This document shows positions 107 to 31,335 of a DNA stretch of 39,642 nt, in pieces. The stretch is from assembly GCA_964600055.1 (NCBI GenBank), contig CAZRID010000001.1, positions 1 to 39,642 on the forward strand, written 5' to 3'. The position numbers were made by a program, and so were the translations under genes. Each line of letters begins with the position of its first letter. Position 1 is the stretch's first letter. Below the pieces are notes generated by a model. It ran no database searches and was not told where the DNA came from. It saw only the letters and a list, made by a program, of their open reading frames with translations. The DNA is from an uncultured Acidimicrobiaceae bacterium (GTDB taxonomy: Bacteria; Actinomycetota; Acidimicrobiia; Spongiisociales; ZC4RG35).

Positions 107-121
107 GTTTCCGCCGGAAAC
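107..121 (+). promoter_or_regulatory. parS-like palindrome copy 1 (GTTTCCGCCGGAAAC)
   Basis: Exact 15-mer read directly from the sequence, about 90 nt upstream of the integrase start. The arms GTTTC/GAAAC match the arms of canonical parS. Confidence 0.6.
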
Positions 122-209
122 CCGAACCGATCAGATGGTGCTTCCGATCGAGGATGAACCCGTCCGCTCGGACCGTTTCGACCGCGCCGCCTAAAGCCGC
201 CCGGGTCAA

Positions 210-1064
210 ATGCCGATACTCCTCGGGTCGTTGGAGGAGAACCGTACCTTCCGCGCCTTCTTGGCCGGCGAGGGGCTGTCCACCAAAACCGCCGGCATCT
301 ACATAGCGAAGGTCGACAACGCCATCCTGTGGTTTGCTGCCAGAGGAGGGGACCTTGTGGGCGCCACAGCTGCCGATCTAGCCGCCTGGGCCTCTGAGCT
401 CGCGGATTCGAGCTCGACCAGGAGGCAAGCGCGTTCGGCCCTACAGCACTACTTCAACTGGGCCGGAAGGGCCAACGCACCCCTCCGGGCGATCAGGGTC
501 CCACCGAAACCTCGATACATCTGCCAGGCGATCACCGTCCGCCAGGCCGACGAGCTCCACGACCTCGCCATCCAGGTCGGGTTCCCGATGGGGACCGCCG
601 TCCTGATCGGTCTCTACCTCGGTTTGCGGGCCCACGAGATCGCCGGGGTTCGTTGGGACCGCTTCGATTATCGGATCGAGAAGTACACGGTCCACGGCAA
701 AGGGTCGTACGTGGCGACGTTGCCGGTTCATGAGGTGCTGGCCGGCCAGCTGATCAAGGTTCGCACCCCTTACGTGTTTCTGTTCCCCGGATCGCGGGAG
801 CGTGACCATGTCCATTACGGGACGATTTGGAAGTGGGTGAGGGAGATGGGCCGGCGGATCGGGTTGGAGGATCTCCGGCCGCACCAGCTGCGGCACACGG
901 CCGGGGCGACGTTGCATGACGCCACCGGGGATCTCCGGGCTACGGCCGACTTTCTCCGCCACCGTCGGCTCGAGACCACCATGATTTACACCCGGACCAC
1001 CGAGGACCGGCTCCGTATTGCGGTAAATACCGGTCTCAGGTTCGGGCAGCGGACAATGCTCTAG
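210..1064 (+). CDS. int: Tyrosine recombinase / phage integrase (XerC/D-like, 284 aa)
   Basis: Has an N-terminal SAM-like domain. Catalytic-type residues are visible in LRAHEI, HGKG, HQLRHT and FLRHRRLETTMIYT (R..K..HxxR..H..Y). Confidence 0.9.
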   Translation: MPILLGSLEENRTFRAFLAGEGLSTKTAGIYIAKVDNAILWFAARGGDLVGATAADLAAWASELADSSSTRRQARSALQHYFNWAGRANAPLRAIRVPPKPRYICQAITVRQADELHDLAIQVGFPMGTAVLIGLYLGLRAHEIAGVRWDRFDYRIEKYTVHGKGSYVATLPVHEVLAGQLIKVRTPYVFLFPGSRERDHVHYGTIWKWVREMGRRIGLEDLRPHQLRHTAGATLHDATGDLRATADFLRHRRLETTMIYTRTTEDRLRIAVNTGLRFGQRTML

Positions 1065-1084
1065 GCCGCAGGGGCGTCTGTCGT

Positions 1085-1552
1085 TTGATAGCTTTCGTCG
1101 CAATGAAACTCGGCTGGGGAGACCTGATCAACAGGGAGCAGATGAAGGCGCTGACGCAAAGTCGTGGATTTTGGCTCAGCTTGATTGTCGTTCTCTTGCT
1201 GATCGGGGTGGTCGCCACGGGAAACGGCGAGGCGCTGACGAGCGTTCCCGGAGGGGTGATCGTCGTATTGCTGTACTTCCTCCCCGCGCTCATCGCCAGG
1301 AAGAAGGCCAACTCGGGCTCCGTCTTCGTGATCAACCTGTTCTTCGGGTGGACTGTCATCGGCTGGGTCATCGCCCTGGCCATGGCCGCCAACAACCCGG
1401 CGCCGACCCAGGTGATGCAGGTCACGCAACGACAACCTCCCCGGTCGGCGCCGACCGGCAGGACCTGTCCTTTCTGCGCAGAAGAGATCCAACCGGCCGC
1501 CGTCGTCTGCAAACACTGCGGACGGGACCTCCCACCCCCACCCGACCGATGA
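1085..1552 (+). CDS. Imm-like superinfection immunity membrane protein fused to a C-terminal zinc ribbon
   Basis: The motif YFLPALIARKKANSGSVFVINLFFGWTVIGWVIALAMA matches the PF14373-type signature (YFLP...GWT..GW..AL). The C-terminus carries CPFC...CKHC. It lies next to int on the lysogeny strand. Confidence 0.7.
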   Translation: MIAFVAMKLGWGDLINREQMKALTQSRGFWLSLIVVLLLIGVVATGNGEALTSVPGGVIVVLLYFLPALIARKKANSGSVFVINLFFGWTVIGWVIALAMAANNPAPTQVMQVTQRQPPRSAPTGRTCPFCAEEIQPAAVVCKHCGRDLPPPPDR

Positions 1553-1569
1553 CCTCACTAAACGCGGAA

Positions 1570-1598
1570 GAACCCCCCTCCGAACGGGAGGGGGGTTC
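1570..1598 (+). terminator. Rho-independent terminator-like hairpin between convergent genes
   Basis: Perfect 12-bp stem gaacccccctcc / ggaggggggttc with a 5-nt loop, followed by tttc. It lies between the converging genes 1085-1552 (+) and 1688-2077 (-). Confidence 0.65.
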
Positions 1599-1687
1599 TT
1601 TCATCTCATGATTCTGATGTAGCCGATGGCGGCCCCGGCGAGGATGGCCAGGATCAGGACCGCGTAGAGGGTGGGACGCATTGGGGC

Positions 1688-2077: not shown

Positions 2078-2379
2078 TTCGTCCTCGCTTTGTCGATGAT
2101 CGCCGTCGAAGCTCGCCGGGCCCGATGAACGATGAGGGCCGGGACGAAGATGATCGGGAAGAGCAGGACGATGACGGTGCCCCTCGGCAGGTCGAGCGGC
2201 CGGCCGGCGAAGTTGAAAGCGATCAGGATCAGGTCGGCGAGGTTGGCCAGTCCCAACATCCCGTATCCGACGGACCGCGCCGGGTGGTGTTGTCCTTTAG
2301 CTTCTCGGGCTTCCCAGAACCATACGAACGCGGCGTAGCCGGATGCCAGGCCGAGTGGGGCTATGGCAAGGAAGCCCAT
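2074..2379 (-). CDS. Holin-like multi-TM membrane protein
   Basis: 101 aa with about 3 hydrophobic helices and a basic C-terminus, immediately downstream of the amidase. Confidence 0.55.
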   Translation of the reverse strand: MGFLAIAPLGLASGYAAFVWFWEAREAKGQHHPARSVGYGMLGLANLADLILIAFNFAGRPLDLPRGTVIVLLFPIIFVPALIVHRARRASTAIIDKARTK

Positions 2380-2382
2380 GGC

Positions 2383-3192
2383 TCAGCCGTCGTCTCGGGT
2401 GTACTCGGCGAGGAGGAGGCAGGTGTACGGGTCGAGCTTGCCGCGGAGGACACCGGGCCGTCCGAGGATCTGGGCGGCTTCCTGATAGAAGGCGACCCTG
2501 GCTTCCATCTCCGGGCCGAACCACGTACCGCGCTCGAGGGGAACCTTGCCCCACTTCTGGTTTTCGTTGAGTGTGTTGAGGGCTCTCTTCCAAATGTCGA
2601 CGTCGTTGCCGACGTCGCCGACCTTGAGGATTGTTGCCATGTCACCCTCCTCGAGTAGCTGGCGGATCCGGGACCGGAACTGGGCCATGTCGACCCCGCG
2701 GGGGTCGACCTTCCGTCCGGGTGGGGTGGCGAATTCCTTGTGGCCGGCGACGTCGTTCTCGTCGGCGCCGACGTGATCGCAAATGGCGGCGGTGGCCCGT
2801 TCCATCACGTCGATCTGGGGGTTGGGCCATGGCTCACCGAGGCCGTCGTTGGCGGCTTCGAGTCCGATCAGGACCCGGTTACCGGTGAGCCCGTTCCAGC
2901 GGCCGACCCCTGAATGGTTGGCGATGCCGGAGGCGACCACGTAGATGATCCCGGTCCGGTCCGGTACCAGCTGGGCCAGCGGGCCGGCCAGGTCGATCCG
3001 TCCGCGGATGATCAGGGTGAGCAGGCCCGCAATCGCCAAGGTCTTCTTGGTGGCGGTGTGATGTTCGAGGACCCCCCGCGGATCGAACGGCTTGGTCTTG
3101 GTGTCGGTACCCCTGGTCTCCCACCCTTCGACGGTGCGGACGTTGCAGCCGGCGTCGTCGAGGACGTCGGAAAGCCACAGGGCCCGGGCCAT
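2383..3192 (-). CDS. Endolysin: N-acetylmuramoyl-L-alanine amidase (Amidase_2/PGRP-like) with a C-terminal peptidoglycan-binding-like domain
   Basis: Motifs EHHTAT, AGHKEF and GRKVDP are typical of zinc amidases. The C-terminal segment VGDVGNDVDIWKRALN resembles a PG-binding repeat. Confidence 0.85.
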   Translation of the reverse strand: MARALWLSDVLDDAGCNVRTVEGWETRGTDTKTKPFDPRGVLEHHTATKKTLAIAGLLTLIIRGRIDLAGPLAQLVPDRTGIIYVVASGIANHSGVGRWNGLTGNRVLIGLEAANDGLGEPWPNPQIDVMERATAAICDHVGADENDVAGHKEFATPPGRKVDPRGVDMAQFRSRIRQLLEEGDMATILKVGDVGNDVDIWKRALNTLNENQKWGKVPLERGTWFGPEMEARVAFYQEAAQILGRPGVLRGKLDPYTCLLLAEYTRDDG

Positions 3193-3512
3193 TACTCGTC
3201 GTCGAGTCTGACGTACTCGGAAACCTTGAGCGGTTCGAGCTGCTTGGCCTTGAGCACCTTGACGGCTTCGGCGACGATGGCGGAGACACCGGCGATGGCG
3301 ATGGCGGCGTTGGCCCGCCCGGTCCAGCTGGTGAACTCACCCACCTCGGGCACATAGGTGGCGCCGTAACCGCAGACGAAGGCGATGCCGTTGACGACGG
3401 CCCCGTCGAGCTTCGAGGTGCCGTCCGGATTCTTGGACAGCTTGCGGACGATGTCGACGAGGTATTTCACCCCGACGGTGGCCAACGCGAACGCGGTCAG
3501 TCCTAGTTCCAT
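3192..3512 (-). CDS. Holin-like membrane protein upstream of the endolysin
   Basis: 106 aa with hydrophobic helices and a charged C-terminus. A strong SD (aaggagaaacagaaATG) precedes the start, and the stop overlaps the endolysin start by 1 nt. Confidence 0.55.
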   Translation of the reverse strand: MELGLTAFALATVGVKYLVDIVRKLSKNPDGTSKLDGAVVNGIAFVCGYGATYVPEVGEFTSWTGRANAAIAIAGVSAIVAEAVKVLKAKQLEPLKVSEYVRLDDE

Positions 3513-3545: not shown

Positions 3546-3560
3546 GTTTCCGGCGGAAAC
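3546..3560 (-). promoter_or_regulatory. parS-like palindrome copy 2
   Basis: The minus strand reads GTTTCCGCCGGAAACC. It sits in the 64-nt gap between the tail fibre gene and the lysis cassette. Confidence 0.6.
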
Positions 3561-3576: not shown

Positions 3577-4479
3577 CTAACGCGGGGTGGTCAGATGGCA
3601 GGTGGCGTTGATGTAGTCGATCCAAAGGTCACTGCCGGAAGTGCCTGCCGACTTTTTCATGACGGCGCCGAAGCCGACATGTTCGGTCGAATCCAACGGG
3701 AGATTGGTGGTGTGGGTCGCTTCAAGGACCCCGTCGATCGAGAAGACAGCTTCGGAACCGTCGGCCGTGATTTGGATTGTCAGCCGGTCGAACGAGTTGG
3801 CCACTACGGCCACCCCTGTGTCGGTGACGGTTCGTGTGCCGGAGCTCGAATCGCAGGTGACGCATTGCCAGTTGACAGAGGGGGACACCCCGGTGGTGCC
3901 GTTGGTCGTGTAGATGAAGTAGACGCCGTCGCCGGGGAGGATCTGGTCAGGGGTGTCGGTGAATCCGAAGACGACCCCGAAGGTTTGTGTTCCGGTTGAC
4001 AGGGCGGGAAGCCAAAGCCTGCCTTCGAGAAACCAGGCTCCGCCTCCCAGGCGGAGGCCGGTCGGCATGGCGCCTTCAATGCCGGCCTGGCCGGTAGTGG
4101 TGGACCCTGTGGTGAGTCGGACCATTCCAACCGCGGTGACGTCGGGTGCGGCGGCGGTTGTGACTGCCGCCCCGGTGCCGAGCTGGGTGCGAAGCATCTG
4201 GCCGCCACCGGCCGTGTTCAAACCGGGAAATCCGGTGAAGTCGTCGTACATCCAGAACAGGGCCCGTGGCAACGTTTGAAGCTGGGCGAGGAGGTCGACA
4301 GGGTCGGTACTGCCACCGCCGCCCGGTGCAGATGGAAACCACAGCCCCAACCCGGCATCCCAAACGAGCGTGTCGCCGGCGGCGAGACCGGTGAGGTCGA
4401 CGTCGCCGAGATCAACGATCCCGCTACTGGTTGAGCCGCCTCGGGGTGGTTCGGTCGGATTGCGCCATCGGGTAGTCAT
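3577..4479 (-). CDS. Minor tail / putative receptor-binding fibre protein
   Basis: The N-terminal motif IVDLGDVDLTGLAAGDTLVWDAGLGLWFP plus a Gly run is typical of actinophage minor tail proteins. It is the last gene of the tail module and has an SD gaggag. Confidence 0.6.
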   Translation of the reverse strand: MTTRWRNPTEPPRGGSTSSGIVDLGDVDLTGLAAGDTLVWDAGLGLWFPSAPGGGGSTDPVDLLAQLQTLPRALFWMYDDFTGFPGLNTAGGGQMLRTQLGTGAAVTTAAAPDVTAVGMVRLTTGSTTTGQAGIEGAMPTGLRLGGGAWFLEGRLWLPALSTGTQTFGVVFGFTDTPDQILPGDGVYFIYTTNGTTGVSPSVNWQCVTCDSSSGTRTVTDTGVAVVANSFDRLTIQITADGSEAVFSIDGVLEATHTTNLPLDSTEHVGFGAVMKKSAGTSGSDLWIDYINATCHLTTPR

Positions 4480-4930: not shown

Positions 4931-6112
4931 TTAGCAGCAGGGGGCGGAGAACTCGGGTAGCCATGAGATCTCGAGGCGGGTGACCGCTCCGACCTGCCAG
5001 TCGATGTGCGGGGTCAAGTCGATGTAGTCGCTGGAGGTGACTGTGGCGAGGGGAGGTCGGTAGAGAATCCCTTGGCCGTAGGTCCAGGGGACGTCGGCTG
5101 ACCAGAGGCGGGCCGCTCTGGGGCCGAGGTGCTGGCCGCGGTAGGGGATCTGTTGGGTGCGGTCGCCGAAGCGGGTTGCGTGATCGAAAGCCCAGACGGT
5201 GTCTCCGACCGGCCACCGCCCGCGGATGGCTTCATGCTGACGGGCGTCGGCTTCGAGGTGGTTGGCGACCGGCCGGCTGGAAAGCTCACCTTCGAGGAAG
5301 CTGTCGATGACGCCGGCTACGTCGGATGGCGACCGCCGGAAACGGATGGTCCGTTCGATCGGGAGTCCGTGAGGGCCGTAGTAGGTCTCGTCGCCGTTGA
5401 GAACGTCGCCGACGACTGTGACGACGCCGTCGCCGTCTTCCTCGAGAGCGACGGCCCGGTTGGCCCAGCTGGTCGAGTCGCGGACTGTGGCCATCCGGAG
5501 CGCTTCGACTCCGATGTAGTTGGGGTCGGATCCCCAGTGGTGGCGGGTGACGACGATCCGAGGGTCGGTCATGTTGAAGACGTCGTCCCGTTCGATCGAG
5601 CAGGCGTCGAGGGTGCAGTTGGGGTTCATCCGGCCGTGGGCGCCGAGGGTTTGGAAGACGGTGCGGATGCACTCGAGCGGAGTTTTGTAGTTGAAGTTTC
5701 CGGTATAGGTGGGAAGGCCGGTGTCGACGACGATGCCGGGGAGGACCTCGTTGGGGAGGACCCCGCCGGCTCCGATCGGGATGAGGATGTCGGAGAGGGG
5801 AGCGGCGACGAAGACGGCCTCTTCGACCATCTGACCTTTGCCTTCACGGTCGCCGAGCCACCACCAGACGCCGGCGCCGGCGATGGTGTGCACCTCGGTG
5901 GCCAGGCGGGGTCGGATGACCACCCCTCCGTAGATGGAGTTGTCCATCAGCTGCTGGTCGGAAAAGAGCCGGTAGTTGGGATGCCACTGGGGGTGGACCA
6001 GGATCATCCCGTTGACTTCGATCCTCTCGAGGACGTCGTCGAGGGGAGTGGTGCCGGCTCGGAGGGGAAGGCTGAACGAGCCCGGATCTTCGAACCGTTC
6101 GATGTAACTCAC
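4931..6112 (-). CDS. Tail-associated (Tal/baseplate hub-like) protein, 393 aa
   Basis: Trimmed to the GTG at 6112, which forms a GTGA overlap with the stop of the upstream gene. The discarded 207-aa N-terminal extension is Arg/Pro/His-rich junk. It sits in the third position after the tape measure. Confidence 0.6.
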   Translation of the reverse strand: MSYIERFEDPGSFSLPLRAGTTPLDDVLERIEVNGMILVHPQWHPNYRLFSDQQLMDNSIYGGVVIRPRLATEVHTIAGAGVWWWLGDREGKGQMVEEAVFVAAPLSDILIPIGAGGVLPNEVLPGIVVDTGLPTYTGNFNYKTPLECIRTVFQTLGAHGRMNPNCTLDACSIERDDVFNMTDPRIVVTRHHWGSDPNYIGVEALRMATVRDSTSWANRAVALEEDGDGVVTVVGDVLNGDETYYGPHGLPIERTIRFRRSPSDVAGVIDSFLEGELSSRPVANHLEADARQHEAIRGRWPVGDTVWAFDHATRFGDRTQQIPYRGQHLGPRAARLWSADVPWTYGQGILYRPPLATVTSSDYIDLTPHIDWQVGAVTRLEISWLPEFSAPCC

Positions 6113-12745: not shown

Positions 12746-13369
12746 TCAGAGACCGGGAAGGATGTAACGGTCGAGGATCGGCCACATCCATTCGGAGAAC
12801 TCGACCAGGTTGTTGAGACCGTCGGCCGGGCCGAAATATTCGGCCCGGTAGGTGTCGATCTGTTCGGCTTTGAGACCTTCCGAGGGGCCACCGCCGGCGG
12901 CGTTGGCCGCACCCATCTGGAAGGCGTGGGCTGCCATCCAGGCGACGACGTCGACCAGAGCCTTCGGGGCCTGGTTGGCCGGGTATCCGCCCTGATAGGT
13001 GACGACGATCCCTTGCGGCTTCGAGGTCCGCCACTCGGCCTGGTTTCCGCCGGAAACTCTGATGAGCCGGCCTTCCAGGTCGGCGTCGCTGTAAAGCAGA
13101 TAGTCGGAAGCGGAAAGGGTGACGCCGGCTTCGACCACCGTGGTGATCGAAACGACCGGCAGATATTTGAGGAACAGGGCCCTCCGCGGGGAACCGGCAT
13201 GATGCCCGTCGAACCGTTCGGTGTGGGCGGTCTGCTCGAGCGGTCGGCCGAGATGACTTTCGACGTGGCCCTGGGCCGCCTCGAGGAGAGCGGTGACCAC
13301 CGCGTCGGGTTCGGAGGTCACATCGATTTGGAGCCGCTTCTCGACGTCGGCCTGGATAGCGATGGTCAA
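12746..13369 (-). CDS. Head-tail connector (gp6-like) protein
   Basis: N-terminus ADVEKRLQID...VVTALLEAAQGHVESHLGRPL is typical of gp6-like connector proteins. Contains parS-like copy 3. Confidence 0.55.
   Translation of the reverse strand: MTIAIQADVEKRLQIDVTSEPDAVVTALLEAAQGHVESHLGRPLEQTAHTERFDGHHAGSPRRALFLKYLPVVSITTVVEAGVTLSASDYLLYSDADLEGRLIRVSGGNQAEWRTSKPQGIVVTYQGGYPANQAPKALVDVVAWMAAHAFQMGAANAAGGGPSEGLKAEQIDTYRAEYFGPADGLNNLVEFSEWMWPILDRYILPGL
13043..13057 (+). promoter_or_regulatory. parS-like palindrome copy 3 (inside a CDS)
   Basis: The plus strand reads GGTTTCCGCCGGAAAC. The transcribed minus strand carries the central-G form. Confidence 0.5.
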
Positions 13370-13378: not shown

Positions 13379-14860
13379 CTACCAGGGGGGCGAGTCGCCG
13401 GGGCCGACCCGGGTGAAACCGACCGGGTTCCGGGTGAAACCGACCGGATCCGGCGACCAGAAGGAGGCGGCGGGGAGGGCGTCGGTGGCGGTGACCGTGG
13501 CGGTGATCAGGATCTGGAGCTGGTCGACGGCGTCGAAACGGTCGGTGGCGGCCACTGTGACGATCACAACGATCCCGAGTGCTTCGGCCCCGCTCCACGA
13601 ATGGGACCCGTCGATGGTGACCACACCGGTGATGGTGAGGTTCTCGACCGAGTCGAGCCGATCGCTGGCGGCCACGGTGGCGGCCGCTTCGATCTCACGG
13701 TTCTCCACCGCGTCGAGTCGGTCGGTGGCGGTGATCGTGACACTGCCCGAAACCTCGCGGCCGGTCTCGTCGTAATGGGCGGAGCCGGCGAGCGTGTCAG
13801 TCCCGGTGACCGTCGAAACGATCGTCACCTCGCGGCTGGACTCCTCATGGTCCTGGCGATCGGATCCTGAAACTGTGCCGGCGACGGCCACCTCGGCGGC
13901 CTCGACCATGTCGACCCGATCGGAGCCGGTCACGCTTGAGGTGATCGTGATAGTGAGGTTCTCGACGTACCGCTTGGCGTCGGTGCCGGTAACCGTGGCG
14001 GCGATCGACAGCTCGGCCGCTTCGACCATGTCGACCCGATCGGTGCCCGCCACGGTCGCTACCGCGGCGACCTCGCGGCCGGCTTCCTCATGGTCCTGCT
14101 GGTCGGTTCCGGTGACGGTGCCGGTGACGGATATCTCACGGCCGGTCTCGTCGAAGAGGGTGCCGCCCGCTACTTCTCGGATGGCGATGAGCGATACCAC
14201 CCACCCGGCGCCTGCTGGGGCCGACGAGGGAGTGTCGGTGAAGGTGTCCCCGGTGATCGTGGCCAGGCGGGTGGCGACATGTACTGTGACGTTGTTAGCC
14301 GCTGGGGTGCCGGTGGTACCGAAATCGAACTGTTCGGTGTAATCGGCGTCGGTGGTAAATGTAATCTCGTTCTCGGTGGCATCGATTCCGATCCACATCC
14401 GCTCGATTGAGCTGAGTCCGGAAAGGGTTACCTCATGCGTCGCTCCGCCGGTTCCATCAACATGGGCGGGAGTTTCCACCGCGTAGTCGCTGGCACCGAT
14501 GGGAATTTCGAGGATGCAGATGGCCTTGGCGGCGGTGTTGCCCGAACGGTTGCCGGTGATCGTGTCGCCGGTTCCAATCTCGGTGGTGACGAGGGTGATC
14601 CAGGCCGATTTTGTGATGCCATCGGCGACGGCACCTTCCGAGCGGGTGCGCTCATAGAGCTTTACCCAGGTGTGTCCGTCGGTATCGGTGACTGAGGTGT
14701 GATGGGTAGAAGCCCCAGAGGTAGTCGTGGAGTTGTCGGTGGCGAACACCACCAGCGCCAGGCGTCCGACAGCAATAGCCGCGCTCGGAGAGAACGCAAT
14801 GCTGGCGCCGGATACCTTCTCTGATGCCGACCCGCGGGCAACGGGGGTACCGAAGGCCAT
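13379..14860 (-). CDS. Repeat-array protein: about 235-aa N-terminal domain plus about 11 degenerate 19-25-aa repeats
   Basis: Repeats of the type E..(R)E(V/I)....TV(T/A)G(T/S)DR.D.V run from aa 236 to about aa 470. The C-terminus carries PVGFTRN PVGFTRV. Confidence 0.7.
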   Translation of the reverse strand: MAFGTPVARGSASEKVSGASIAFSPSAAIAVGRLALVVFATDNSTTTSGASTHHTSVTDTDGHTWVKLYERTRSEGAVADGITKSAWITLVTTEIGTGDTITGNRSGNTAAKAICILEIPIGASDYAVETPAHVDGTGGATHEVTLSGLSSIERMWIGIDATENEITFTTDADYTEQFDFGTTGTPAANNVTVHVATRLATITGDTFTDTPSSAPAGAGWVVSLIAIREVAGGTLFDETGREISVTGTVTGTDQQDHEEAGREVAAVATVAGTDRVDMVEAAELSIAATVTGTDAKRYVENLTITITSSVTGSDRVDMVEAAEVAVAGTVSGSDRQDHEESSREVTIVSTVTGTDTLAGSAHYDETGREVSGSVTITATDRLDAVENREIEAAATVAASDRLDSVENLTITGVVTIDGSHSWSGAEALGIVVIVTVAATDRFDAVDQLQILITATVTATDALPAASFWSPDPVGFTRNPVGFTRVGPGDSPPW

Positions 14861-21600: not shown

Positions 21601-22875
21601 TCAGGGCTGGGGGGTTACGGTGATCTTGCCGGCGGCCAGGAGCACCGCTCCGGAGTCGGGATCGACCACGTTCATGTTGGCGGGCCGGTAGGCCACGTTC
21701 ATCCCCTCGCGGGGTGGGTAGTTCTCCCGCCGGCGGGGCTCGTCGAGGGTGAGCCATCCGTCCTGGACGCCCTGGTGGTAAGCCTCGTAGCGGGTCTTGA
21801 TGTCGCCGCGGAGGAGGCCTTCGAGGTTGAACTCGCCGAAGGTGTTGGGGGTGACCAGGTCGCTGGCGGGATGGTTGATCCAAGCTTCGAGACGGAGACA
21901 CCACGGCCGGATCGAGTCGGTGACCGATTCGATCGACTGATGTTCGATGTTGTTGTTGGTCGACCTGGTCAGCTCGTAGAGCTTGTGCGGTGGGATCCGG
22001 AGGATCCGGGCCACCTCGGTGACCCCGAACTGGCGGGACTCGAGAAGCTGGGCATCGTCCGCCTTGAGGTCGATCGTGTTGTACGTAGCGCCGGCGGAGA
22101 GGACCGGGGTGAGATTGGCCTTCTTGAGTCCCTTGTGGAACTCGCTCATCTCCTCCTGGAGCCTCTTACGTTTGGCTGCGTCGTCGCCGGTGCCGGTGCC
22201 GCCTTTGATCGGGGCGGTCAGTTGGATGTAGTCGCGGAGGTGAGTGCCGTTGGCGAAGAAGGTGGCGGCCAGCTCGTCGGCAGCGGCGACGGTGCCGAGA
22301 CTGAGACGGTGAGCCTGAATCGGGCTGATCGGGTTGATCCCGTCGAGGCACAAGAACGGAACCCAGAAGACGTCGTGGTCGGTGTAGGTCTTCCAGTTTC
22401 CGTCAGAAACTTTGACCTCGTATACGCGGAGGCCGGTCTTCTCATCGGACTTCGGTTTGACCCGATCGGGGTGGAGGAACCGCATCCCGATCACCTGGCC
22501 GAAGGTGTCTCGCAATTTGAAGCCGGCGCAATAGCCGCGGTTGAGGAGGGAGAGCATCCACGACTCGAACAGGCTTTGCCGGATCCATCCCTCGTCGGGC
22601 TGTTCGAGCCAGACCGGACCGGCGCTGAAGGTTCGTTCGTTCTGAGTGAGCCGGCGGAAACTATCGAAGGGGAGGAAGGCGACGGTCTCGGAGAGGTAGC
22701 GGATCCCGGAGTACCAGGCGGTAATGCCAAGGGCGCGGCGGTCGCTCATAGCCACCCCGGCCGCGGTCGGCCCGTAGCCGGCGTTGCTGGCCAGCAACGC
22801 CCCGAAGTCCTCTAGGGAGAGCGGGTCGAACCTTTTCTTGGTGCGGGCGGCGGCGATACGACCGAAGGCGCTCAT
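21601..22875 (-). CDS. Portal protein (HK97 family)
   Basis: 424 aa, downstream of the terminase. General portal-like sequence character. Confidence 0.85.
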   Translation of the reverse strand: MSAFGRIAAARTKKRFDPLSLEDFGALLASNAGYGPTAAGVAMSDRRALGITAWYSGIRYLSETVAFLPFDSFRRLTQNERTFSAGPVWLEQPDEGWIRQSLFESWMLSLLNRGYCAGFKLRDTFGQVIGMRFLHPDRVKPKSDEKTGLRVYEVKVSDGNWKTYTDHDVFWVPFLCLDGINPISPIQAHRLSLGTVAAADELAATFFANGTHLRDYIQLTAPIKGGTGTGDDAAKRKRLQEEMSEFHKGLKKANLTPVLSAGATYNTIDLKADDAQLLESRQFGVTEVARILRIPPHKLYELTRSTNNNIEHQSIESVTDSIRPWCLRLEAWINHPASDLVTPNTFGEFNLEGLLRGDIKTRYEAYHQGVQDGWLTLDEPRRRENYPPREGMNVAYRPANMNVVDPDSGAVLLAAGKITVTPQP

Positions 22876-25925: not shown

Positions 25926-26126
25926 TCAGTTTCCGGCGGAAACTTTCGTCTTGTCATCGACCTCGACACGGAAGGCAGCCGCAACCAGGCGGGCAGTAGC
26001 CACCGCTGCGCGCTTGGTTTTGTACATCTCCGAGGTGTAGAGGATCCGGCCATTGGCTCCTCGGATCCTCGACCAGTACTCGCGGGTCTTGACGCTGCGA
26101 TAGACCTCAACACGGAACCTGGTCAC
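25926..26126 (-). CDS. DUF1508 (YegP-like) protein, 66 aa
   Basis: Trimmed to the GTG at 26126 (GTGA overlap). The motif FRVEVYRS...YWSRIRGANGRILYTSEMYKTKRAA matches the YegP repeat pattern. Confidence 0.65.
   Translation of the reverse strand: MTRFRVEVYRSVKTREYWSRIRGANGRILYTSEMYKTKRAAVATARLVAAAFRVEVDDKTKVSAGN
25929..25943 (-). promoter_or_regulatory. parS-like palindrome copy 4
   Basis: The minus strand reads aaaGTTTCCGCCGGAAACtga. It overlaps the last codons and the stop of the DUF1508-like gene, at the early/packaging boundary. Confidence 0.6.
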
Positions 26127-26428
26127 GATCCGACGACCGATCCGTCTTCCCACTTGAACTCGGCGACGCCCGCATGGAGTCCACACTTGACGCAGTAGGT
26201 AGCTCCGTAGAACGTGGGTTGGGCCGCATAGGTCTCAGCGAGTGCCTGGCCCATCGAGGTGGCAGCACCGCAGAGGTTGTGGATGTAGGTCTTGCGCACT
26301 GGGCGGATGAAGCCTCGGGACCGCTCTTCGTCGCTCAGCACCAGGTAGACCTCGGCCTGTGGTCGTGGCTCGGTGTCGGTGCCTCGAGACAGTCTCGGGT
26401 CGGTGGGATCCGAAGTGGTTCCGCTCAT
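26123..26428 (-). CDS. Hypothetical Cys-containing protein (101 aa)
   Basis: Trimmed to the ATG at 26428. Contains LCGAAT...YCVKCG. Confidence 0.5.
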   Translation of the reverse strand: MSGTTSDPTDPRLSRGTDTEPRPQAEVYLVLSDEERSRGFIRPVRKTYIHNLCGAATSMGQALAETYAAQPTFYGATYCVKCGLHAGVAEFKWEDGSVVGS

Positions 26429-26499
26429 GACTGGGACCGCCCTTTCGGTTTTGTGTGGTGAGCCCATCGGAGGCGCTGGCACTTCGGGAAGCGGGCGGA

Positions 26500-26622
26500 G
26501 TCAGGTACCTGGATGAGTTCGCATTCCGATTCAACAATCGGGACAACACGTTCCGGTTCCGTGACACCTTGCAACGTCTGTGTCAAAGCGAAGTGTTGAC
26601 ATATCAGGAACTTGTGTCCTGA
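26500..26622 (+). pseudogene. IS1595-family transposase C-terminal remnant
   Basis: The plus-frame translation VRYLDEFAFRFNNRDNTFRFRDTLQRLCQSEVLTYQELVS* carries the YLDEFxFRFNxR C-terminal signature. No upstream transposase body is present (in-frame stop at 26428-26430). Confidence 0.6.
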
Positions 26623-27266
26623 GGTGCGATTCCACCCATAGGCATCCCAGAAATCGCCTCCGTCAGGGTTCGGCGCCAGTGTTCGACCATAACGGGAGGA
26701 ACCGCGAACCCTACGCGTTCGAATGTGCAACGCCGAAATACGACCCCCACCATTCCGATGACGCCCGCCGTAGGTTGGGGTTCTAGACCGAACACGACCG
26801 TGACTATCGGAGAGGTAAAGGTGACCGTTCCGTCGAAGTGCGGACCCGGTGGACTGGTCGGGGTCAACACAGCCGGACCCACAATCCGACAGTCCTGAAA
26901 TATCTTGTTGCTGATGATCGGCGTCCCGACGCGCACCATATCGACCACGTTGATCCGTCGATGATTGATGACCTGAGCAGCTAACTCCTCGTCGGTGGCG
27001 ATAGGCAATTCACCGAAGTCGGAGGCGGGGGGTGAGGAACTAGGCGCTACGGCGAGCAATTGCGGACGCCACGTTCCAAGCGCAGCCAGGACAAGCGAAA
27101 AAACCCCGATCCCAAGGACCGCGATCCAGAGACCCGGAAGGTCTGTAAGAGTGCGCAGCACAAACGAGGCGACGCTGCTCACGCCGAGACCCCACCACAC
27201 GAAATGGAGGGTCGAAATGTTGCCGAGCCACCTCCACGCAATCGCCAAAACGCTACGACCCGACAT
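26604..27266 (-). CDS. Membrane protein (2 N-terminal TM helices plus a soluble domain), moron gene
   Basis: 220 aa with hydrophobic N-terminal helices, in the lower-GC stretch. No family recognised. Confidence 0.55.
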   Translation of the reverse strand: MSGRSVLAIAWRWLGNISTLHFVWWGLGVSSVASFVLRTLTDLPGLWIAVLGIGVFSLVLAALGTWRPQLLAVAPSSSPPASDFGELPIATDEELAAQVINHRRINVVDMVRVGTPIISNKIFQDCRIVGPAVLTPTSPPGPHFDGTVTFTSPIVTVVFGLEPQPTAGVIGMVGVVFRRCTFERVGFAVPPVMVEHWRRTLTEAISGMPMGGIAPQDTSS

Positions 27267-27451
27267 CCCGAGAATCGTAGTGACGGGTTAGGACGCGACT
27301 GAGTCACTTATACCGTCCTGTATGAGGCAGGTGAGCACGGCCGGGCTGCTCTGCGCCGCTGTGGGAGGTTTGGGGGCCAGTACCTCGTGGGGGAGGTCGG
27401 CTCACTCCAATAACCGGGACCATAGACACCGTCTGTCAAGGATTTGTGGAT

Positions 27452-27700
27452 TTAGTTCCGACAGTGTGTTTTCGAGCAATGCGCGGTTTGCAGCTGTTCG
27501 AGTGTCTTGACCCGGCCAGCCTTCAGATCGGCTTCGGCGGCGGCGAGGTCGTGTCGGAACCAGCAGCTAACCAGCTCCAGGTCGAGGGTCACCCGGTCGC
27601 CTAGACGTTCCCCAATCGGGATACCGCAGCACGGCATCAGGTGGCTTCCGATCGGTGGGCACATGTGGGTCACGACATCGGTTGCAATCTCGTCACTCAC
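27452..27700 (-). CDS. Cys-rich small protein (82 aa), moron gene
   Basis: GTG start directly after the 25-nt leader repeat. Contains HMCPPIGSHLMPCCG and a C-terminal AAAEADLKAGRV helix. Confidence 0.5.
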   Translation of the reverse strand: MSDEIATDVVTHMCPPIGSHLMPCCGIPIGERLGDRVTLDLELVSCWFRHDLAAAEADLKAGRVKTLEQLQTAHCSKTHCRN

Positions 27701-28136
27701 GTTTCACCTTCTCTTTCAGGCTTTGGGGCTGAGAGGGGGATAAGGAAACGCCAGCCGCATTCGGCGTGTCTGCCCTGTCCAACCTCGTCGCCCGCGAAAA
27801 GGATGCAGTGGGTTCTACGGGATGACCACCAGGGGGAGTCACGGCCCAAATTATCGGGCCGTCGTCAGTGGCATTACCTTCAAGCGGCAGCGTGGCAACT
27901 AGCAGCGACTCACCGATGAGTCCGTACATCTCCCACCCGACCTCGTCCCACCAGTCAGCAAGCCAGCAACCTGGGCGCTTACCGCTGCTCTCGATCGTGC
28001 AGCCCAACTCGTCGGGGCAGACAACATGGCCCCTCGCGCCTTCCCACTCCAACCAAACCTCGAACTTGTGGGCATTGACGGGAAGGCATGTTCCTAGCGA
28101 TTCTCCGTCCAAGTAGTACGGGATGCGCTCGCTCAT
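27693..28136 (-). CDS. Hypothetical protein (147 aa), moron gene
   Basis: ATGA-coupled to the 35-aa ORF upstream. Trp/Cys-rich N-terminal part. No family recognised. Confidence 0.5.
   Translation of the reverse strand: MSERIPYYLDGESLGTCLPVNAHKFEVWLEWEGARGHVVCPDELGCTIESSGKRPGCWLADWWDEVGWEMYGLIGESLLVATLPLEGNATDDGPIIWAVTPPGGHPVEPTASFSRATRLDRADTPNAAGVSLSPSQPQSLKEKVKRE
27707..27731 (-). repeat. 25-nt leader repeat, copy 1
   Basis: The minus strand reads CAGCCCCAAAGCCTGAAAGAGAAGG and ends 6 nt before the GTG at 27700. It is identical to 28250-28274. Confidence 0.85.
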
Positions 28137-28240
28137 TCGTCGTCCCAGTTTCGGCCCTGAAAGATCGCTCCGCCCTCACCGTCTGGATAGATGATGGATG
28201 GTGCGCCTTCGATCGCCTCTTGAACTGTCGCAACTCTCAC
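28133..28240 (-). CDS. Unlisted 35-aa ORF behind leader repeat copy 2
   Basis: My translation is VRVATVQEAIEGAPSIIYPDGEGGAIFQGRNWDDE. The GTG lies 9 nt after the repeat, and the stop overlaps the next start (ATGA). Confidence 0.4.
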   Translation of the reverse strand: MRVATVQEAIEGAPSIIYPDGEGGAIFQGRNWDDE

Positions 28241-28249
28241 TTCGGGCTC

Positions 28250-28274
28250 CCTTCTCTTTCAGGCTTTGGGGCTG
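28250..28274 (-). repeat. 25-nt leader repeat, copy 2
   Basis: Identical 25-mer, ending 9 nt before the GTG at 28240. Confidence 0.85.
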
Positions 28275-28326
28275 GGTCAGTCATATACGATCGAAGTTGA
28301 ATCGAGGTCCTTGCAACCATCGCATG

Positions 28327-29267: not shown

Positions 29268-29659
29268 GGGATGGCCTGGCCACCGTCGGGGCATACGAGG
29301 CAGTCCTCGAGGAGGTGATCCCAGCTGTCCCAGGTGAACTCGCCTGGAGGCATCTTGAGATCGGCTTTGAATCCGGGCGGGGGTTGGCGGGGGACCATCT
29401 CGAGGGTGATGACATGGGCGAGGAGTTGGCGGAAACCGCCGGGGAGGGGGGTGCCTTCGTCTTGAGACGTTCCCAAGTCGTCGATGACGTCGAGAACTGC
29501 CTGGCAGATCGGATGGGCCCGATAGGTCCACATGTCGTCTTCGAAGATGCCGACTGACTTGATGTAGATGGTGCCGGCAGGGATCGGCCATTCGCACAGT
29601 TGGCACTGGTGGTCTTTGCGGGCTGTTGGTTGGCTTGCGCTCAACTGGATCCAGCTCAT
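29264..29659 (-). CDS. Hypothetical Cys/His-containing early protein (131 aa)
   Basis: ATG at 29659 in an ATGA overlap. Contains CQLC...HPIC. Confidence 0.5.
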   Translation of the reverse strand: MSWIQLSASQPTARKDHQCQLCEWPIPAGTIYIKSVGIFEDDMWTYRAHPICQAVLDVIDDLGTSQDEGTPLPGGFRQLLAHVITLEMVPRQPPPGFKADLKMPPGEFTWDSWDHLLEDCLVCPDGGQAIP

Positions 29660-30033
29660 GGCCGCCACCCTTTCATCGTCTCGGCGGCTCTAAGGTCGAA
29701 AAGGAGTCCGTCGTCGGTGGCGATGATCCCGGGGAACCTTTGGGCGAGGGCTTCGCAGAGGAGGCGGGCTTCCTGTTCGACCTGGTTGGAGAATTCGCCG
29801 CCGGTGAAGACACCTTTGGCGATGAGGAGTTGGATGAGGGCAGACGATTCGGCTCGGAGGATCAGGGTCAATTCGCGGTGGTTGCGGACGGCGTCGCCTT
29901 CCGGGTCGCCCTTGGCACGGGTACCGAGTTGCCAGCCGGCCAGCAACACCCGCCACTTGCCGAGACGGTTCAGCCAGGGCAGACGGGACTGGTACGGGGA
30001 CGGATCGGGACCATCGGGATCAGGCATCGTCAT
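29656..30033 (-). CDS. Hypothetical early protein (125 aa)
   Basis: ATGA overlap with the upstream gene. Good GC3 bias. Confidence 0.55.
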   Translation of the reverse strand: MTMPDPDGPDPSPYQSRLPWLNRLGKWRVLLAGWQLGTRAKGDPEGDAVRNHRELTLILRAESSALIQLLIAKGVFTGGEFSNQVEQEARLLCEALAQRFPGIIATDDGLLFDLRAAETMKGWRP

Positions 30034-30677
30034 CGGGACCGCTTCCAGGCGACCCGCGGCGGGTTGGCCTGGCCTCGGATCTCGGCGTGGACCTGGCCGG
30101 TGCTGTCAACGACTCGCACGACGTCGAATCCCACCTTGCGGATGAAGAACGGAGCCATGACGCCGGGCGTGAACGCGGCGGCGGCTTGGAGGCCGGCCTC
30201 GAGGATGGCGATGGCGGCCCATTGTTGGTTGGAGGCGCAGAGCATCGCGCCGAGTGCGTACTCGCAGCCGGATCCGACAGCGGAGAGTCCTACTTCGGTC
30301 TCGATGAAGGAGAGGTCAGAACTGAATTCGAACAGCCGACTCCGGTAGCCGACCAACGCTGACCCTGATTCCTCCCGATCGTTTTCCTTCTTCAACCATC
30401 CCTCCGACTGGAGGGCGTTACGCACCGTCGGGACGAACTCTTTGACCAGGTACTCCTCGGCGTCCTTGCGGACGTCGTACGGAGGTTCGGTCCGATATTG
30501 GAGGATCTGGCCGAATCGGAAGCTGGTGGTGTAACCCAGAACCAGAGTCCCGGATCCGGTGTGGAGCTCGACCAGCTTGGGGGTCTTGAGAGCGGCCCGC
30601 CAGTTGGGAGAGGCGCCACAAGCATCGCCTCCGAGCCAGACGTCGCCGTCGTTGACGACTCCGACGATCGCGGTCAC
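30030..30677 (-). CDS. HslV/proteasome-beta-like Ntn-hydrolase-fold protein (215 aa)
   Basis: Trimmed to the GTG at 30677 (GTGA overlap). The N-terminus (M)TAIVGVVNDGDVWLGGDA places Thr at position 2. GSGCEYALGA resembles the HslV motif GSGGxYAL. Confidence 0.55.
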   Translation of the reverse strand: MTAIVGVVNDGDVWLGGDACGASPNWRAALKTPKLVELHTGSGTLVLGYTTSFRFGQILQYRTEPPYDVRKDAEEYLVKEFVPTVRNALQSEGWLKKENDREESGSALVGYRSRLFEFSSDLSFIETEVGLSAVGSGCEYALGAMLCASNQQWAAIAILEAGLQAAAAFTPGVMAPFFIRKVGFDVVRVVDSTGQVHAEIRGQANPPRVAWKRSR

Positions 30678-30895
30678 GAGTGGGTCCTCTGTTTGCGGTA
30701 GTCGTCGGCTTTGGGACAGACGGCGTGGTGGGGGAGGTAGGTGTCGACGATCCGGACCTGGGGCTCGCCGGCTTCGTCCATCGAGACGACCGCGGCCCGC
30801 TTCTCTTTGCTGGCGGCGTGGAGGGGGATGGGCCGGTCGGTGTTCTTCGACCGGGCCCAGACGATTTCGGCGTTGCAGCCGCGGCAATGGTTCAC
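30674..30895 (-). CDS. Small zinc-finger-like protein (73 aa)
   Basis: Trimmed to the GTG at 30895 (GTGA overlap). Contains CRGC...HHAVC. Confidence 0.5.
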   Translation of the reverse strand: MNHCRGCNAEIVWARSKNTDRPIPLHAASKEKRAAVVSMDEAGEPQVRIVDTYLPHHAVCPKADDYRKQRTHS

Positions 30896-31335
30896 GGTTG
30901 GAACCGGCGGATGAGAGCGGCGACGATCGGGAAAAGGGTACGGACCGCGGCGATGTCGGCTTCCGGTTCGGCGTGGCGCCACAGGTAGGTGACGGCGGCG
31001 GCGTCGCCGTTGAGCCAGCCGGTGACGAGGGCGGCGGCGAGGTGGCCACCTTCGGTCTGGTCGACGTCGGCCGGGAAGAACGCCTGCCAGTTCCGGCCGG
31101 TGGTGGGGACGACACTTTTGGCTACTGCGAGGAGTCCGTAGACGACGTCGGACCACATGGCGTGGGCGGCGACGCTGAACGTTTCGGGGTCGGTCAGATC
31201 AGGGTCGGGGAGGGTGCGGGCGATCTCGACCAGGTACGGATCCAGCACGTGGAGCTCAGAGTTTCCGACCAGGGCTTTGAGAGCGTTGGAGATGAGCCCG
31301 ATACGGCGGAGGTCGGTTTCCGGCGGAAACCTCAT
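30892..31335 (-). CDS. Hypothetical early protein (147 aa)
   Basis: Trimmed to the ATG at 31335 (ATGA overlap). Codons 3-7 are formed by parS-like copy 5. Confidence 0.5.
   Translation of the reverse strand: MRFPPETDLRRIGLISNALKALVGNSELHVLDPYLVEIARTLPDPDLTDPETFSVAAHAMWSDVVYGLLAVAKSVVPTTGRNWQAFFPADVDQTEGGHLAAALVTGWLNGDAAAVTYLWRHAEPEADIAAVRTLFPIVAALIRRFQP
31316..31330 (-). promoter_or_regulatory. parS-like palindrome copy 5
   Basis: The minus strand reads atgagGTTTCCGCCGGAAACC. It lies at the junction after the wHTH gene. Confidence 0.6.

What the first reader, a model, noticed from the sequence alone, without database searches (positions are those of the whole stretch)
107..31330. Dispersed parS-like palindrome GTTTCCG(C/G)CGGAAAC: five exact copies plus degenerate and half sites
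I read the same 15-mer at 107-121, 3546-3560, 13043-13057, 25929-25943 and 31316-31330. A degenerate copy, GTTTCCGTCAGAAAC, lies at 22396-22410, and half-sites CCG(C/G)CGGAAAC lie near 5334 and 22651. Under uniform base composition a given 15-mer is expected about 7e-5 times in 2 x 39.6 kb (my arithmetic), so five copies is not chance. The arms GTTTC/GAAAC are those of canonical chromosomal parS (TGTTTCACGTGAAACA), but the centre is 5 nt and GC-rich. The genome encodes a ParB-like protein (34834-36255) and no ParA. Four of the five copies show the same central-C form on the locally transcribed strand. Four also sit at module boundaries: upstream of int, between the fibre gene and the lysis cassette, at the early/packaging boundary, and after the wHTH gene. 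This placement recalls the orientation-biased stoperators of mycobacteriophage L5. My hypothesis is that these are loading or silencing sites for the phage ParB-like protein, or for the wHTH protein at 31332-31739.
Basis: partly seen in the sequence, partly recalled or inferred. Interest (0 to 1): 0.8.

Follow-up and report, generated by a model that had tools for sequence, protein, structure and literature searches.

The report
Dispersed binding sites for phage ParB
A temperate phage genome carries five or six copies of a perfect 15-base palindrome that, judged by comparison with related phages, are the docking sites of the phage's own partner-less ParB protein, which points to a genome-wide DNA-clamp system of a kind so far known from plasmids and integrative elements.

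Summary
GTTTCCG(C/G)CGGAAAC occurs exactly five times at the stated coordinates, against 0 in 100 shuffles. A sixth copy with one mismatch lies at 22396.

It is not a host repeat, an RNA hairpin or an immunity operator. A relative with about 74% DNA identity keeps the exact motif at both syntenic places that could be examined.

More distant relatives carry near-identical sites at matching positions: the end of the gene in the wHTH position, the early/packaging boundary, and a head-tail connector gene.

In 52 phage loci with ParB relatives, 15-bp 7-1-7 palindromes with the core CCG-N-CGG occur two to seven times per locus only where the ParB recognition helix reads H(V/I)SKRL. Three motif classes (GTTTC, GATTC, GATGC) track the residues equivalent to Caulobacter ParB 172/173, which are known DNA-reading positions. 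In five of seven GATTC-class phages one copy lies inside parB itself.

No ParA gene and no ParA-binding motif is present. wHTH homologues are absent from most motif-bearing relatives.

Best reading: these are parS-type loading sites of an orphan ParB CTPase acting over the whole genome, like KorB or BisD. Binding and function remain inferred. It is a new variant of a known kind.

The parts
107..121 (.). Site 1, GTTTCCGCCGGAAAC. It is intergenic, 89 nt upstream of the integrase start at 210, and about 118 nt after tRNA-Asn if the contig is circular.
3546..3560 (.). Site 2, GTTTCCGGCGGAAAC. It lies in the 64-nt gap between the tail-fibre-like gene (3577-4479, -) and the holin-like gene (3192-3512, -).
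13043..13057 (.). Site 3, GTTTCCGCCGGAAAC. It is inside the head-tail adaptor gene 12746-13369 (-), where it encodes V-S-G-G-N.
   Evidence: The analogous site in the L175-type phage lies in a head-closure-like gene (L303 13657).
22396..22410 (.). Probable site 6, GTTTCCGTCAGAAAC, with one arm mismatch. It is inside the portal gene 21601-22875 (-).
   Evidence: The identical variant is used in L372 (14660), and the CAG half-site variant in L175, L179 and L303.
25929..25943 (.). Site 4, GTTTCCGGCGGAAAC. It forms the last five codons of the DUF1508 gene 25926-26126 (-), at the end of the early region and before the gap that precedes terS/terL.
   Evidence: It is conserved exactly in L302 at 5309. 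Syntenic sites are L179 12081 and L372 14329/14660.
31316..31330 (.). Site 5, GTTTCCGGCGGAAAC. It starts 1 nt after the stop of the wHTH gene (31332-31739, -) and forms codons 2-7 of gene 30892-31335 (-).
   Evidence: It is conserved exactly in L302 at 1129, in a different coding context. Syntenic near-sites are L179 7953 and L175 14126.
34834..36255 (-). Orphan ParB-family protein (473 aa, or 454 aa from the GTG at 36198), the proposed reader of the sites. It has a CTPase fold with GHRRHAA and ENLQRED, an HTH with recognition helix SHVSKRLTLL, a Zn-like H272/C277/C300/H306 module and a helical C-terminal domain.
36252..36545 (-). A 97-aa protein with a weak sigma70-region-4/HTH match, encoded directly upstream of parB and overlapping it. 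Its place as a possible partner is speculative (KorA- or BisC-like).
   Evidence: It is conserved only in L174 and L372 among the relatives.

Best explanation
The 15-bp palindromes are the cognate parS-type sites of the phage's own orphan ParB-family protein (34834-36255). A ParB dimer is proposed to recognise each 7-1-7 palindrome through its helix-turn-helix, whose recognition helix reads HVSKRL. By analogy with ParB, KorB and BisD, it would then close as a CTP-bound clamp and slide away. Five or six loading sites spaced 3.4-9.5 kb apart would let the protein cover the whole 39.6-kb genome. There is no ParA, no ParA-binding peptide, and the phage has an integrase. The role is therefore most likely not partition. 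More likely it is genome-wide control or organisation of the phage DNA, for example of the single long leftward lytic transcription unit and of the early-to-late boundary, where a site is conserved. What is shown: the sites exist, they are conserved at syntenic positions, they are restricted to phages with this ParB type, their sequence covaries with ParB residues 172/173, and some copies are embedded in parB. What is inferred: physical binding, CTP dependence, sliding, and the biological output.
For: There are five exact copies against 0 expected.

A relative from sample SRR21686406 (L174 and L302; ParB 65% and wHTH 73% identical; DNA about 74%) keeps the exact motif at both syntenic places covered. 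It has none elsewhere in 13 kb, which mirrors the window. The central base and the coding context differ.

The only palindrome with arms of 7 or more shared by the window and this relative is this motif.

Distant relatives (ParB 36-39%) carry sites with one or two mismatches at matching positions.

Among 52 loci with ParB relatives, sites of the three classes number 38 in 334 kb of loci with an H[VI]SKRL helix. They number 3 in 535 kb of other ParB loci and 1 in 1.83 Mb of control phage loci. Ten of 19 H[VI]SKRL loci have two or more sites, against 0 of 33 others (Fisher p = 6e-6).

The motif class tracks ParB residues 172/173. The GTTTC class has TK, SP, SA or SK. The GATTC class has xQ in 7 of 7. 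The GATGC class has NQ in 3 of 3. These positions contact parS or NBS in solved complexes, and Q173 reads an adenine (PMC7383237; register).

Five of seven GATTC-class phages embed a copy in parB, with the local peptide changed to DSGGI or DSGRI.

The ParB HTH is 100% identical between the window and its relative although the proteins are 65% identical overall. S153, K154 and R155 are invariant in 10 group members.

The fold matches ParB, Noc and KorB. Odd palindromes are known for ParB-family clamps: KorB OB is 13 bp (PMC5577506), and BisD bisS is 11-n-11 and lies inside genes (PMC12409273).
Against: There is no binding experiment, and AlphaFold2 cannot model the DNA complex.

The relatives were retrieved through ParB, so every motif-bearing locus has ParB by construction. 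Only about 10 kb on each side was seen.

The motif classes A and G were defined after looking at these loci.

The covariation is partly phylogenetic. A rough NJ tree suggests that class T is one clade, although class G appears twice.

Six H[VI]SKRL loci show no site in the stretch held.

In the window no site lies within 3.5 kb of parB.

The invariant GHRR, with His in place of the Glu of GERR, may mean altered CTP hydrolysis.

The downstream function (regulation, compaction or packaging) is not constrained by the data.
Confidence: 0.75

Rival explanations
1. The sites are operators of the zinc-ribbon wHTH protein (31332-31739), whose gene ends next to site 5.
For: A site sits at the 3' end of the wHTH gene in the window, in L302 and in L179. 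The protein has a weak HTH match.
Against: A wHTH homologue was detected only in L179 among the motif-bearing ParB loci. L175 and L372 (class T) and all class A and G loci lack one within 10 kb of parB. The gene in the same position in L175 is unrelated, yet it carries the site. The recognition-helix region differs at several positions between the window and its close relative although the motif is identical. No residue/base covariation could be seen for this protein.
Confidence: 0.06
2. The sites are dispersed operators of the immunity repressor, like L5 stoperators or phiC31 conserved inverted repeats, and they silence the prophage.
For: The copies are dispersed and highly conserved, and many lie at gene boundaries. 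An XRE-like gene lies at 39300-39566.
Against: No copy lies in the divergent immunity region 39200-39300, which has its own TTGGCATTTTCACCAA-type repeats. The site is a perfect palindrome, and its central base is not orientation-conserved. Motif variants track ParB residues, and copies are embedded in parB. That stoperators are asymmetric and orientation-biased is my own knowledge.
Confidence: 0.05
3. The motif is a short boundary sequence that promotes recombination between phage modules, and it is kept for that reason.
For: Homology blocks between the window and L302 end exactly at the motif at both sites. The window has an extra gene (30892-31335) inserted right after site 5, flanked by TCCGCCGGAAACCG and TCCGCCGGTTCCAACCG.
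Against: Sites also lie inside conserved structural genes and inside parB. A recombination role does not explain the symmetric covariation with ParB residues. Shared 15-mers would become mosaic joints as a side effect of being conserved.
Confidence: 0.05
4. The motif is a host-factor binding site or a generic host repeat.
For: The host is unknown, so a host factor cannot be excluded directly.
Against: Exact matches in 2.9 million viral contigs number 93, all single. This is about what I expect by chance. The genome scan returned only single matches scattered over many phyla. It was cut at 119 rows, so it is not exhaustive. The variants track a phage-encoded protein.
Confidence: 0.04
5. The motif acts as an RNA hairpin, as a terminator, attenuator or processing site.
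For: A 6-bp stem with a 3-nt loop can form. Site 4 scores as terminator-like, but only on the non-transcribed strand.
Against: Folding energies of the five contexts equal those of shuffles (z from -0.19 to +0.75), and the hairpin is absent from the minimum-energy fold in two of the five. Site 5 lies in an ATGA-coupled gene junction. Sites 3 and 6 are in mid-gene.
Confidence: 0.02

Closest known systems
KorB and its OB operators on IncP plasmid RK2
   Same: Both have a ParB-family CTPase/HTH protein. Both have several copies of an odd-length palindrome dispersed over the replicon (OB consensus is 13 bp, TTTAGCGGCTAAA; PMC5577506). KorB clamps load at the sites and slide to act at a distance on transcription (PMC11790492). 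KorB is among the structural matches (8qa8/8qa9), with a weak KorB Pfam match.
   Different: KorB also serves partition with the ParA IncC, and none is present here. KorB works with KorA or TrbA, and no partner is established here. The host element here is an integrating siphophage, not a plasmid. The site sequence, the C-terminal domains and the GHRR motif differ.
BisD and bisS on the integrative conjugative element ICEclc
   Same: BisD is a ParB-like CTP clamp on an integrated mobile element. Its odd palindromic loading sites (GAGCTATCCCCnGGGGATAGCTC) lie inside coding genes. It carries an extra lineage-specific domain. It spreads along the direction of transcription and controls distant promoters (PMC12409273).
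   Different: BisD has two sites 2 kb apart rather than five or six around the genome. It needs BisC, and a ParA-like gene is nearby. No sequence relationship between the extra domains was tested.
Chromosomal ParB/Spo0J-parS and Noc-NBS
   Same: These give the best sequence and structure matches (T. thermophilus Spo0J 6e-33). The half-site GTTTC is shared with parS, and C at position 6 with NBS. The specificity positions 172/173 appear to be used in the same way (PMC7383237). A site inside the parB gene recalls the parS within B. subtilis spo0J (my own knowledge).
   Different: The palindrome is 15 bp with an extra central base pair. Residues at 173, 179, 184, 201 and 204 are K, R, D, D and Y instead of R, T, A, G and R (the last three placed from my memory of the Caulobacter sequence). 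There is no ParA, no ParA-binding motif and no membrane helix.
Dispersed SopB centromere sites IR1-4 of the plasmid-prophage N15
   Same: A temperate phage with several single palindromic ParB-family sites instead of one centromere array (four natural IR sites, PMC7205306). That they are dispersed in the genome is my own knowledge.
   Different: N15 is a linear plasmid prophage with SopA. The phage here has an integrase and a tRNA-Asn attachment region and no ParA.
Stoperators of mycobacteriophage L5
   Same: Many short conserved sites scattered through a temperate actinophage genome.
   Different: Stoperators are asymmetric, orientation-biased and bound by the immunity repressor (my own knowledge). 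The sites here are palindromic, show no conserved orientation and are absent from the immunity region.

Membership tests
ParABS partition system | ParB-family protein with an N-terminal CTPase fold (GxxRxxA and ENxxR boxes) and an HTH DNA-binding domain | tested here: met
   ParB_N 1.7e-18 and HTH_ParB 4.3e-12. GHRRHAA and ENLQRED are present. Sequence matches to ParB, Noc and KorB chains in PDB and fold matches.
ParABS partition system | Palindromic parS site specifically bound by the ParB | tested here: inconclusive
   Co-occurrence, residue/base covariation and copies embedded in parB all support it. No binding assay is possible with these tools.
ParABS partition system | Cognate ParA ATPase and a ParA-interaction motif (L/F/I)G(K/R)G(L/F/I) in ParB | tested here: not met
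   No Soj-like hit in the window or in any of 53 ParB loci, and no Walker-A match in the window. The motif is absent from all 51 group ParBs (motif definition from PMC12704722).
ParABS partition system | Extrachromosomal or chromosomal replicon that needs segregation | tested here: not met
   A tyrosine integrase and an adjacent tRNA-Asn point to an integrating prophage.
KorB/OB-type global regulator | Multiple dispersed operator palindromes on the element | tested here: met
   Five exact copies and one near-exact copy, spaced 3.4-9.5 kb apart.
KorB/OB-type global regulator | Clamp-locking co-repressor (KorA/TrbA) with its own operators at promoters | tested here: inconclusive
   A 97-aa weak-HTH gene lies directly upstream of parB. 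It is conserved only in L174 and L372. No second motif was found.
KorB/OB-type global regulator | CTP-dependent sliding and repression at a distance | not testable with these tools
   This needs biochemistry and reporter assays.
BisD/bisS-type activator clamp | ParB-like core plus an extra effector domain, and odd palindromic sites within genes | tested here: met
   The C-terminal 270 residues have no PDB match and carry invariant H272, C277, C300 and H306. Sites 3 to 6 overlap coding sequence. Homology of the extra domain to the BisD activator domain was not tested.
BisD/bisS-type activator clamp | BisC-like partner bound at target promoters | not tested
   No BisC sequence was at hand.
L5-type stoperators | Asymmetric site with an orientation tied to transcription, also present at the immunity promoter, bound by the repressor | tested here: not met
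   The site is a perfect palindrome. The central base is not conserved between relatives. No copy lies in 39200-39300.
Intrinsic terminator or RNA hairpin element | Stable stem-loop, stable beyond shuffled controls, at transcript ends | tested here: not met
   z-scores range from -0.19 to +0.75. One site lies in a translationally coupled junction.
Host-wide repeated element | Many copies in host genomes outside the phage | tested here: inconclusive
   Only single, taxonomically scattered matches were returned. The genome scan was truncated and the host is unknown.

The most novel reading that the evidence does not exclude
A widespread clade of integrating, mostly soil-metagenome, high-GC temperate siphophages uses an orphan ParB CTP clamp, loaded at several parS-like sites around the genome, as a master regulator or organiser of the lytic programme. 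It might gate the early-to-late switch at the conserved site pair that brackets the packaging-module promoter or cos region. The clade shows a readable specificity code: residues 172/173 against bases 2 and 4 of the half-site. This code has diversified into at least three mutually orthogonal protein/site pairs, possibly to avoid cross-talk between co-resident phages.
Probability: 0.35. Interest if true: 0.85.

Novelty: new variant of a known kind. Interest (0 to 1): 0.7.

Why it matters
Orphan ParB-CTPase proteins are common on prophages, but their targets and roles are essentially unknown (PMC12704722).

This work gives a concrete protein/site pairing for one large phage clade, with three natural specificity classes and a predicted two-residue code. 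That makes the question of what phage ParBs do directly testable by EMSA, ChIP-seq and residue swaps.

If the proteins act like KorB or BisD, long-range control of genes by sliding clamps would extend from plasmids and ICEs to ordinary integrating phages. The orthogonal ParB/site pairs could also serve as DNA-labelling or synthetic-regulation tools for high-GC bacteria.

Tried and rejected
- Megablast of 25 kb against cultured phages found no match. One 'distant' search failed on a length limit.
- ParB as a single query in viral contigs and genome contigs found no relative.
- An exact look-up of the window's ParB found no contig on record.
- Members of the TerL 90% cluster (49-aa fragments, L180-L182) are unrelated at the DNA level.
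- A concatenated seven-protein query to multiplex the homologue search failed. It returned one irrelevant hit and cost one of three searches.
- TerL relatives in IMG/VR are at most 45% identical and lack the motif. They were used as controls.
- The Rfam scan found only tRNA-Asn.
- Promoter and terminator scans show nothing consistent at the sites.
- Isolated half-sites are not clearly enriched.
- A relaxed search for any CCG-N-CGG odd palindrome is noisy in GC-rich DNA and was not used for statistics.
- The PDB fold search explains only the N-terminal 200 residues of ParB.
- The 5mYOX-activator type of phage ParB (PMC13229309) was considered and set aside. Those ParBs lack an evident DNA-binding domain, and no dioxygenase match appeared among the window proteins I scanned.

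Full report
**Observation.** The pattern GTTTCCGSCGGAAAC matches exactly at 107, 3546, 13043, 25929 and 31316. It matches none of 100 dinucleotide-preserving shuffles. Markov models of order 1 to 3 expect 1e-4 to 3e-4 copies per variant. With up to three mismatches there are ten matches against 1.73 expected. The best extra match is GTTTCCGTCAGAAAC at 22396. The flanks of the copies share nothing, so only the 15-mer is repeated. Isolated half-sites number 13 against about 8 expected, which is not clearly enriched.

**The window.** It is 64% G+C. It is a whole 39,642-base contig held by NCBI and Logan, and it has no close relative among cultured phages.

**Genome layout.** Codon-model gene calls and family scans give a temperate siphophage.
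- A short + strand lysogeny module holds an XRE-like gene at 39300-39566, tRNA-Asn at 39557-39630 and the integrase at 210-1064.
- Everything else lies on the - strand, as one long leftward array.
- The early genes include an SLT-like protein, a 97-aa weak HTH, ParB (34834-36255), an HTH_36 replication initiator with internal iterons, and a zinc-ribbon wHTH (31332-31739).
- A DUF1508 gene follows, then terS, terL, portal, protease, capsid, connector, tape measure, fibre, holin-like gene and amidase.

**Position of the sites.**
- Sites 107 and 3546 are intergenic.
- Site 13043 is inside the head-tail adaptor gene.
- Site 22396 is inside the portal gene.
- Site 25929 is the last five codons of the DUF1508 gene, at the end of the early region.
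- Site 31316 begins 1 nt after the wHTH stop and forms codons 2-7 (M-R-F-P-P-E-T) of the next gene.

Four of the five exact sites are non-coding or within 20 nt of a gene end, against 16.8% of genome positions (p = 0.003, on my own gene calls).

**What it is not.**
- As RNA, the five contexts fold no better than shuffles (z from -0.19 to +0.75), and the hairpin is missing from two of the five minimum-energy folds. One site lies in an ATGA-coupled junction.
- The immunity intergenic region (39200-39300) has no copy and carries different repeats.
- A scan of 2.9 million viral contigs gave 93 single matches, about what I expect by chance.
- The genome scan gave only single matches scattered across many phyla. 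It was truncated, so it is not exhaustive.
- Rfam finds only the tRNA.

**Conservation in a close relative.** ParB has a 65%-identical homologue on a 7.7-kb Logan contig (L174). The wHTH protein has a 73%-identical homologue on a 5.6-kb contig from the same sample (L302). DNA identity to the window is about 74%.
- L302 has the exact motif twice.
- One copy lies in the last codons of the wHTH gene, encoding K-F-P-A-E-T-A. The other lies in the last codons of the DUF1508 gene, encoding K-V-S-G-G-N-S.
- These are the syntenic counterparts of 31316 and 25929.
- The central base differs from the window, and so does the coding context.
- L174 has no copy, like the homologous stretch of the window.
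- The motif is the only palindrome with arms of 7 or more that the window shares with these contigs.
- Homology blocks end exactly at the motif. The window has an extra gene (30892-31335) inserted just after site 5.

**Conservation in distant relatives.** Phages whose ParB is only 36-39% identical carry near-sites at matching positions.
- L179 has GTTTCCGCCAGAAAA 3 nt after the stop of its wHTH homologue. It has GTTTCCGCCAGAAAC 70 nt upstream of its packaging module.
- L175 has GTTTCCGCCAGAAAC in the last codons of the gene in the wHTH position, which is not a wHTH homologue.
- The same phage has a second copy in a head-closure-like gene (L303 13657).
- L372 has three sites. Two of them bracket the non-coding gap between an early terminator and an HNH-like gene.
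- Matches with two or fewer mismatches occur 10 times in 1.86 Mb of unrelated phage loci.

**Who reads it.** I retrieved 50 IMG/VR loci with ParB relatives from an alignment of group members. For each I extracted the recognition-helix region and scanned for sites.
- Dispersed 7-1-7 palindromes with the core CCG-N-CGG occur two to seven times per locus.
- Loci with two or more sites all have a helix reading H[VI]SKRL.
- Unique sites number 38 in 334 kb of such loci, 3 in 535 kb of other ParB loci, and 1 in 1.83 Mb of controls.
- Ten of 19 H[VI]SKRL loci have two or more sites, against 0 of 33 others (Fisher p = 6e-6).

The sites fall into three classes that track the two residues just before the helix.

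| Class | Site | Residues at 172/173 | Phages |
|---|---|---|---|
| T | GTTTC[CT]G-N-C[GA]GAAAC | TK, SP, SA, SK | window, L175, L179, L372 |
| A | GATTCCG-N-CGGAATC | xQ in all seven | L376, L377, L378, L380, L383, L386, L396 |
| G | GATGCCG-N-CGGCATC | NQ in all three | L381, L387, L388 |

- The alignment to B. subtilis Spo0J places these residues at Caulobacter ParB 172/173.
- In solved ParB-parS and Noc-NBS complexes, S172 and R173 contact DNA. The R173Q change switches recognition from guanine to adenine (PMC7383237).
- The changes in the site are symmetric in both arms, as expected for a dimeric reader.
- In five of seven class A phages one copy lies inside parB. There the local peptide is DSGGI or DSGRI, whereas other family members have varied x-[AS]-G-x-[ILV] sequences.
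- Between the window and its close relative, the ParB HTH is 100% identical although the proteins are 65% identical overall.
- S153, K154 and R155 are invariant in ten group members.
- The wHTH protein has a homologue in only one motif-bearing relative, and its helix is less conserved.

**Caveats.**
- The loci were found through ParB, and only about 10 kb on each side is held.
- Classes A and G were defined after inspection.
- A rough tree suggests that class T is a single clade, although class G arises twice.
- Six H[VI]SKRL loci show no site in the stretch held.

**The protein.**
- ParB has the CTPase boxes, but with an invariant His in place of the Glu of GERR (GHRRHAA).
- It lacks the ParA-binding motif, as do all 51 group members (motif from PMC12704722).
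- No ParA-like gene is present in the window or in any ParB locus.
- The AlphaFold2 model (pLDDT 86) matches ParB, Noc and KorB over the first 200 residues or so.
- The C-terminal 270 residues, with invariant H272, C277, C300 and H306, match nothing in the PDB.

**Mechanism.** The best-supported reading is that the palindromes are parS-type sites of this orphan ParB. Clamp loading, CTP dependence and sliding are inferred from the family. The phage integrates and has no ParA, so partition is unlikely.

The closest working analogues are two.
- KorB on RK2 has an odd 13-bp operator, dispersed copies and long-range repression by a sliding clamp (PMC5577506, PMC11790492).
- BisD on ICEclc has odd palindromic sites inside genes, an extra effector domain, spreading with transcription and promoter activation (PMC12409273).

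The conserved site, or site pair, at the early/late gap hints at control of the late operon or of the packaging region. This is speculation.

**Novelty.** Full-text searches found no description of parS-like sites for orphan ParBs of integrating phages. I rate the finding as a new variant of a known kind. The ParB-site pairing is well supported computationally. The biological function remains open.

Noticed in passing
window 33342-33579: Four copies of the palindrome AAGACCGGCAA-TGGG-TTGCCGGTCTT lie at 59-81 nt spacing, inside the HTH_36 replication-initiator-like gene (32870-33970, -). The same CGGCAA-N4-TTGCCG array lies inside the HTH_36 gene of L179 (6088-6261). L175 has TCACCGGTGA five times in its HTH_36 gene. 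This is probably an iteron-type origin.
   Followed up: partly
window 39300-39642 and 1-1064: tRNA-Asn (39557-39630, +) overlaps the end of an XRE-like ORF and would sit about 580 nt upstream of the integrase if the contig is circular. This is probably an attP within the tRNA. No terminal repeat was found.
   Followed up: no
window 39200-39300: The divergent intergenic region carries repeats TTGGCATTTTCACCAA and CATTCACCAAG. These are candidate immunity operators and are unlike the 15-mer.
   Followed up: no
window 30892-31335, compared with L302 1141-1150: A 147-aa gene is present only in the window. It sits exactly after site 5 and is flanked by TCCGCCGGAAACCG and TCCGCCGGTTCCAACCG. Both homology blocks with L302 end at the motif, so the motif coincides with mosaic joints.
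   Followed up: partly
window 13500-14170: Several 51-98 nt imperfect direct repeats lie inside the 493-aa gene 13379-14860 (-), which has no family match. This is a repeat-built structural protein. Three more large unassigned genes follow, up to 19000.
   Followed up: no
window 26300-28300: This stretch has lower G+C (about 0.60) and scores poorly with the phage's own codon model. Its ORFs 26604-27266 and 27693-28136 have no family match. It may be acquired cargo.
   Followed up: no
window 34834-36255 (ParB residues 200-473): A lineage-specific C-terminal region has invariant H272, C277, C300 and H306, which look like a zinc site, followed by a helical domain. It has no PDB fold match. The catalytic Glu of GERR is an invariant His in the closest group members.
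   Followed up: partly
L372 14290-14700: A strong terminator-like hairpin (GAGGCCCCGCCGGGGCCTC plus a T run) is followed at once by one site. A second site lies 330 nt later, just before an HNH/zinc-ribbon gene. The two sites bracket the early/late non-coding gap.
   Followed up: partly
L175 11407-11871 and L179 3914-4729: Distant relatives encode a second ParB_N protein directly after parB, fused to WhiB in L175 or with its own HTH in L179. The window has none. The WhiB fusion points to actinobacterial hosts.
   Followed up: no
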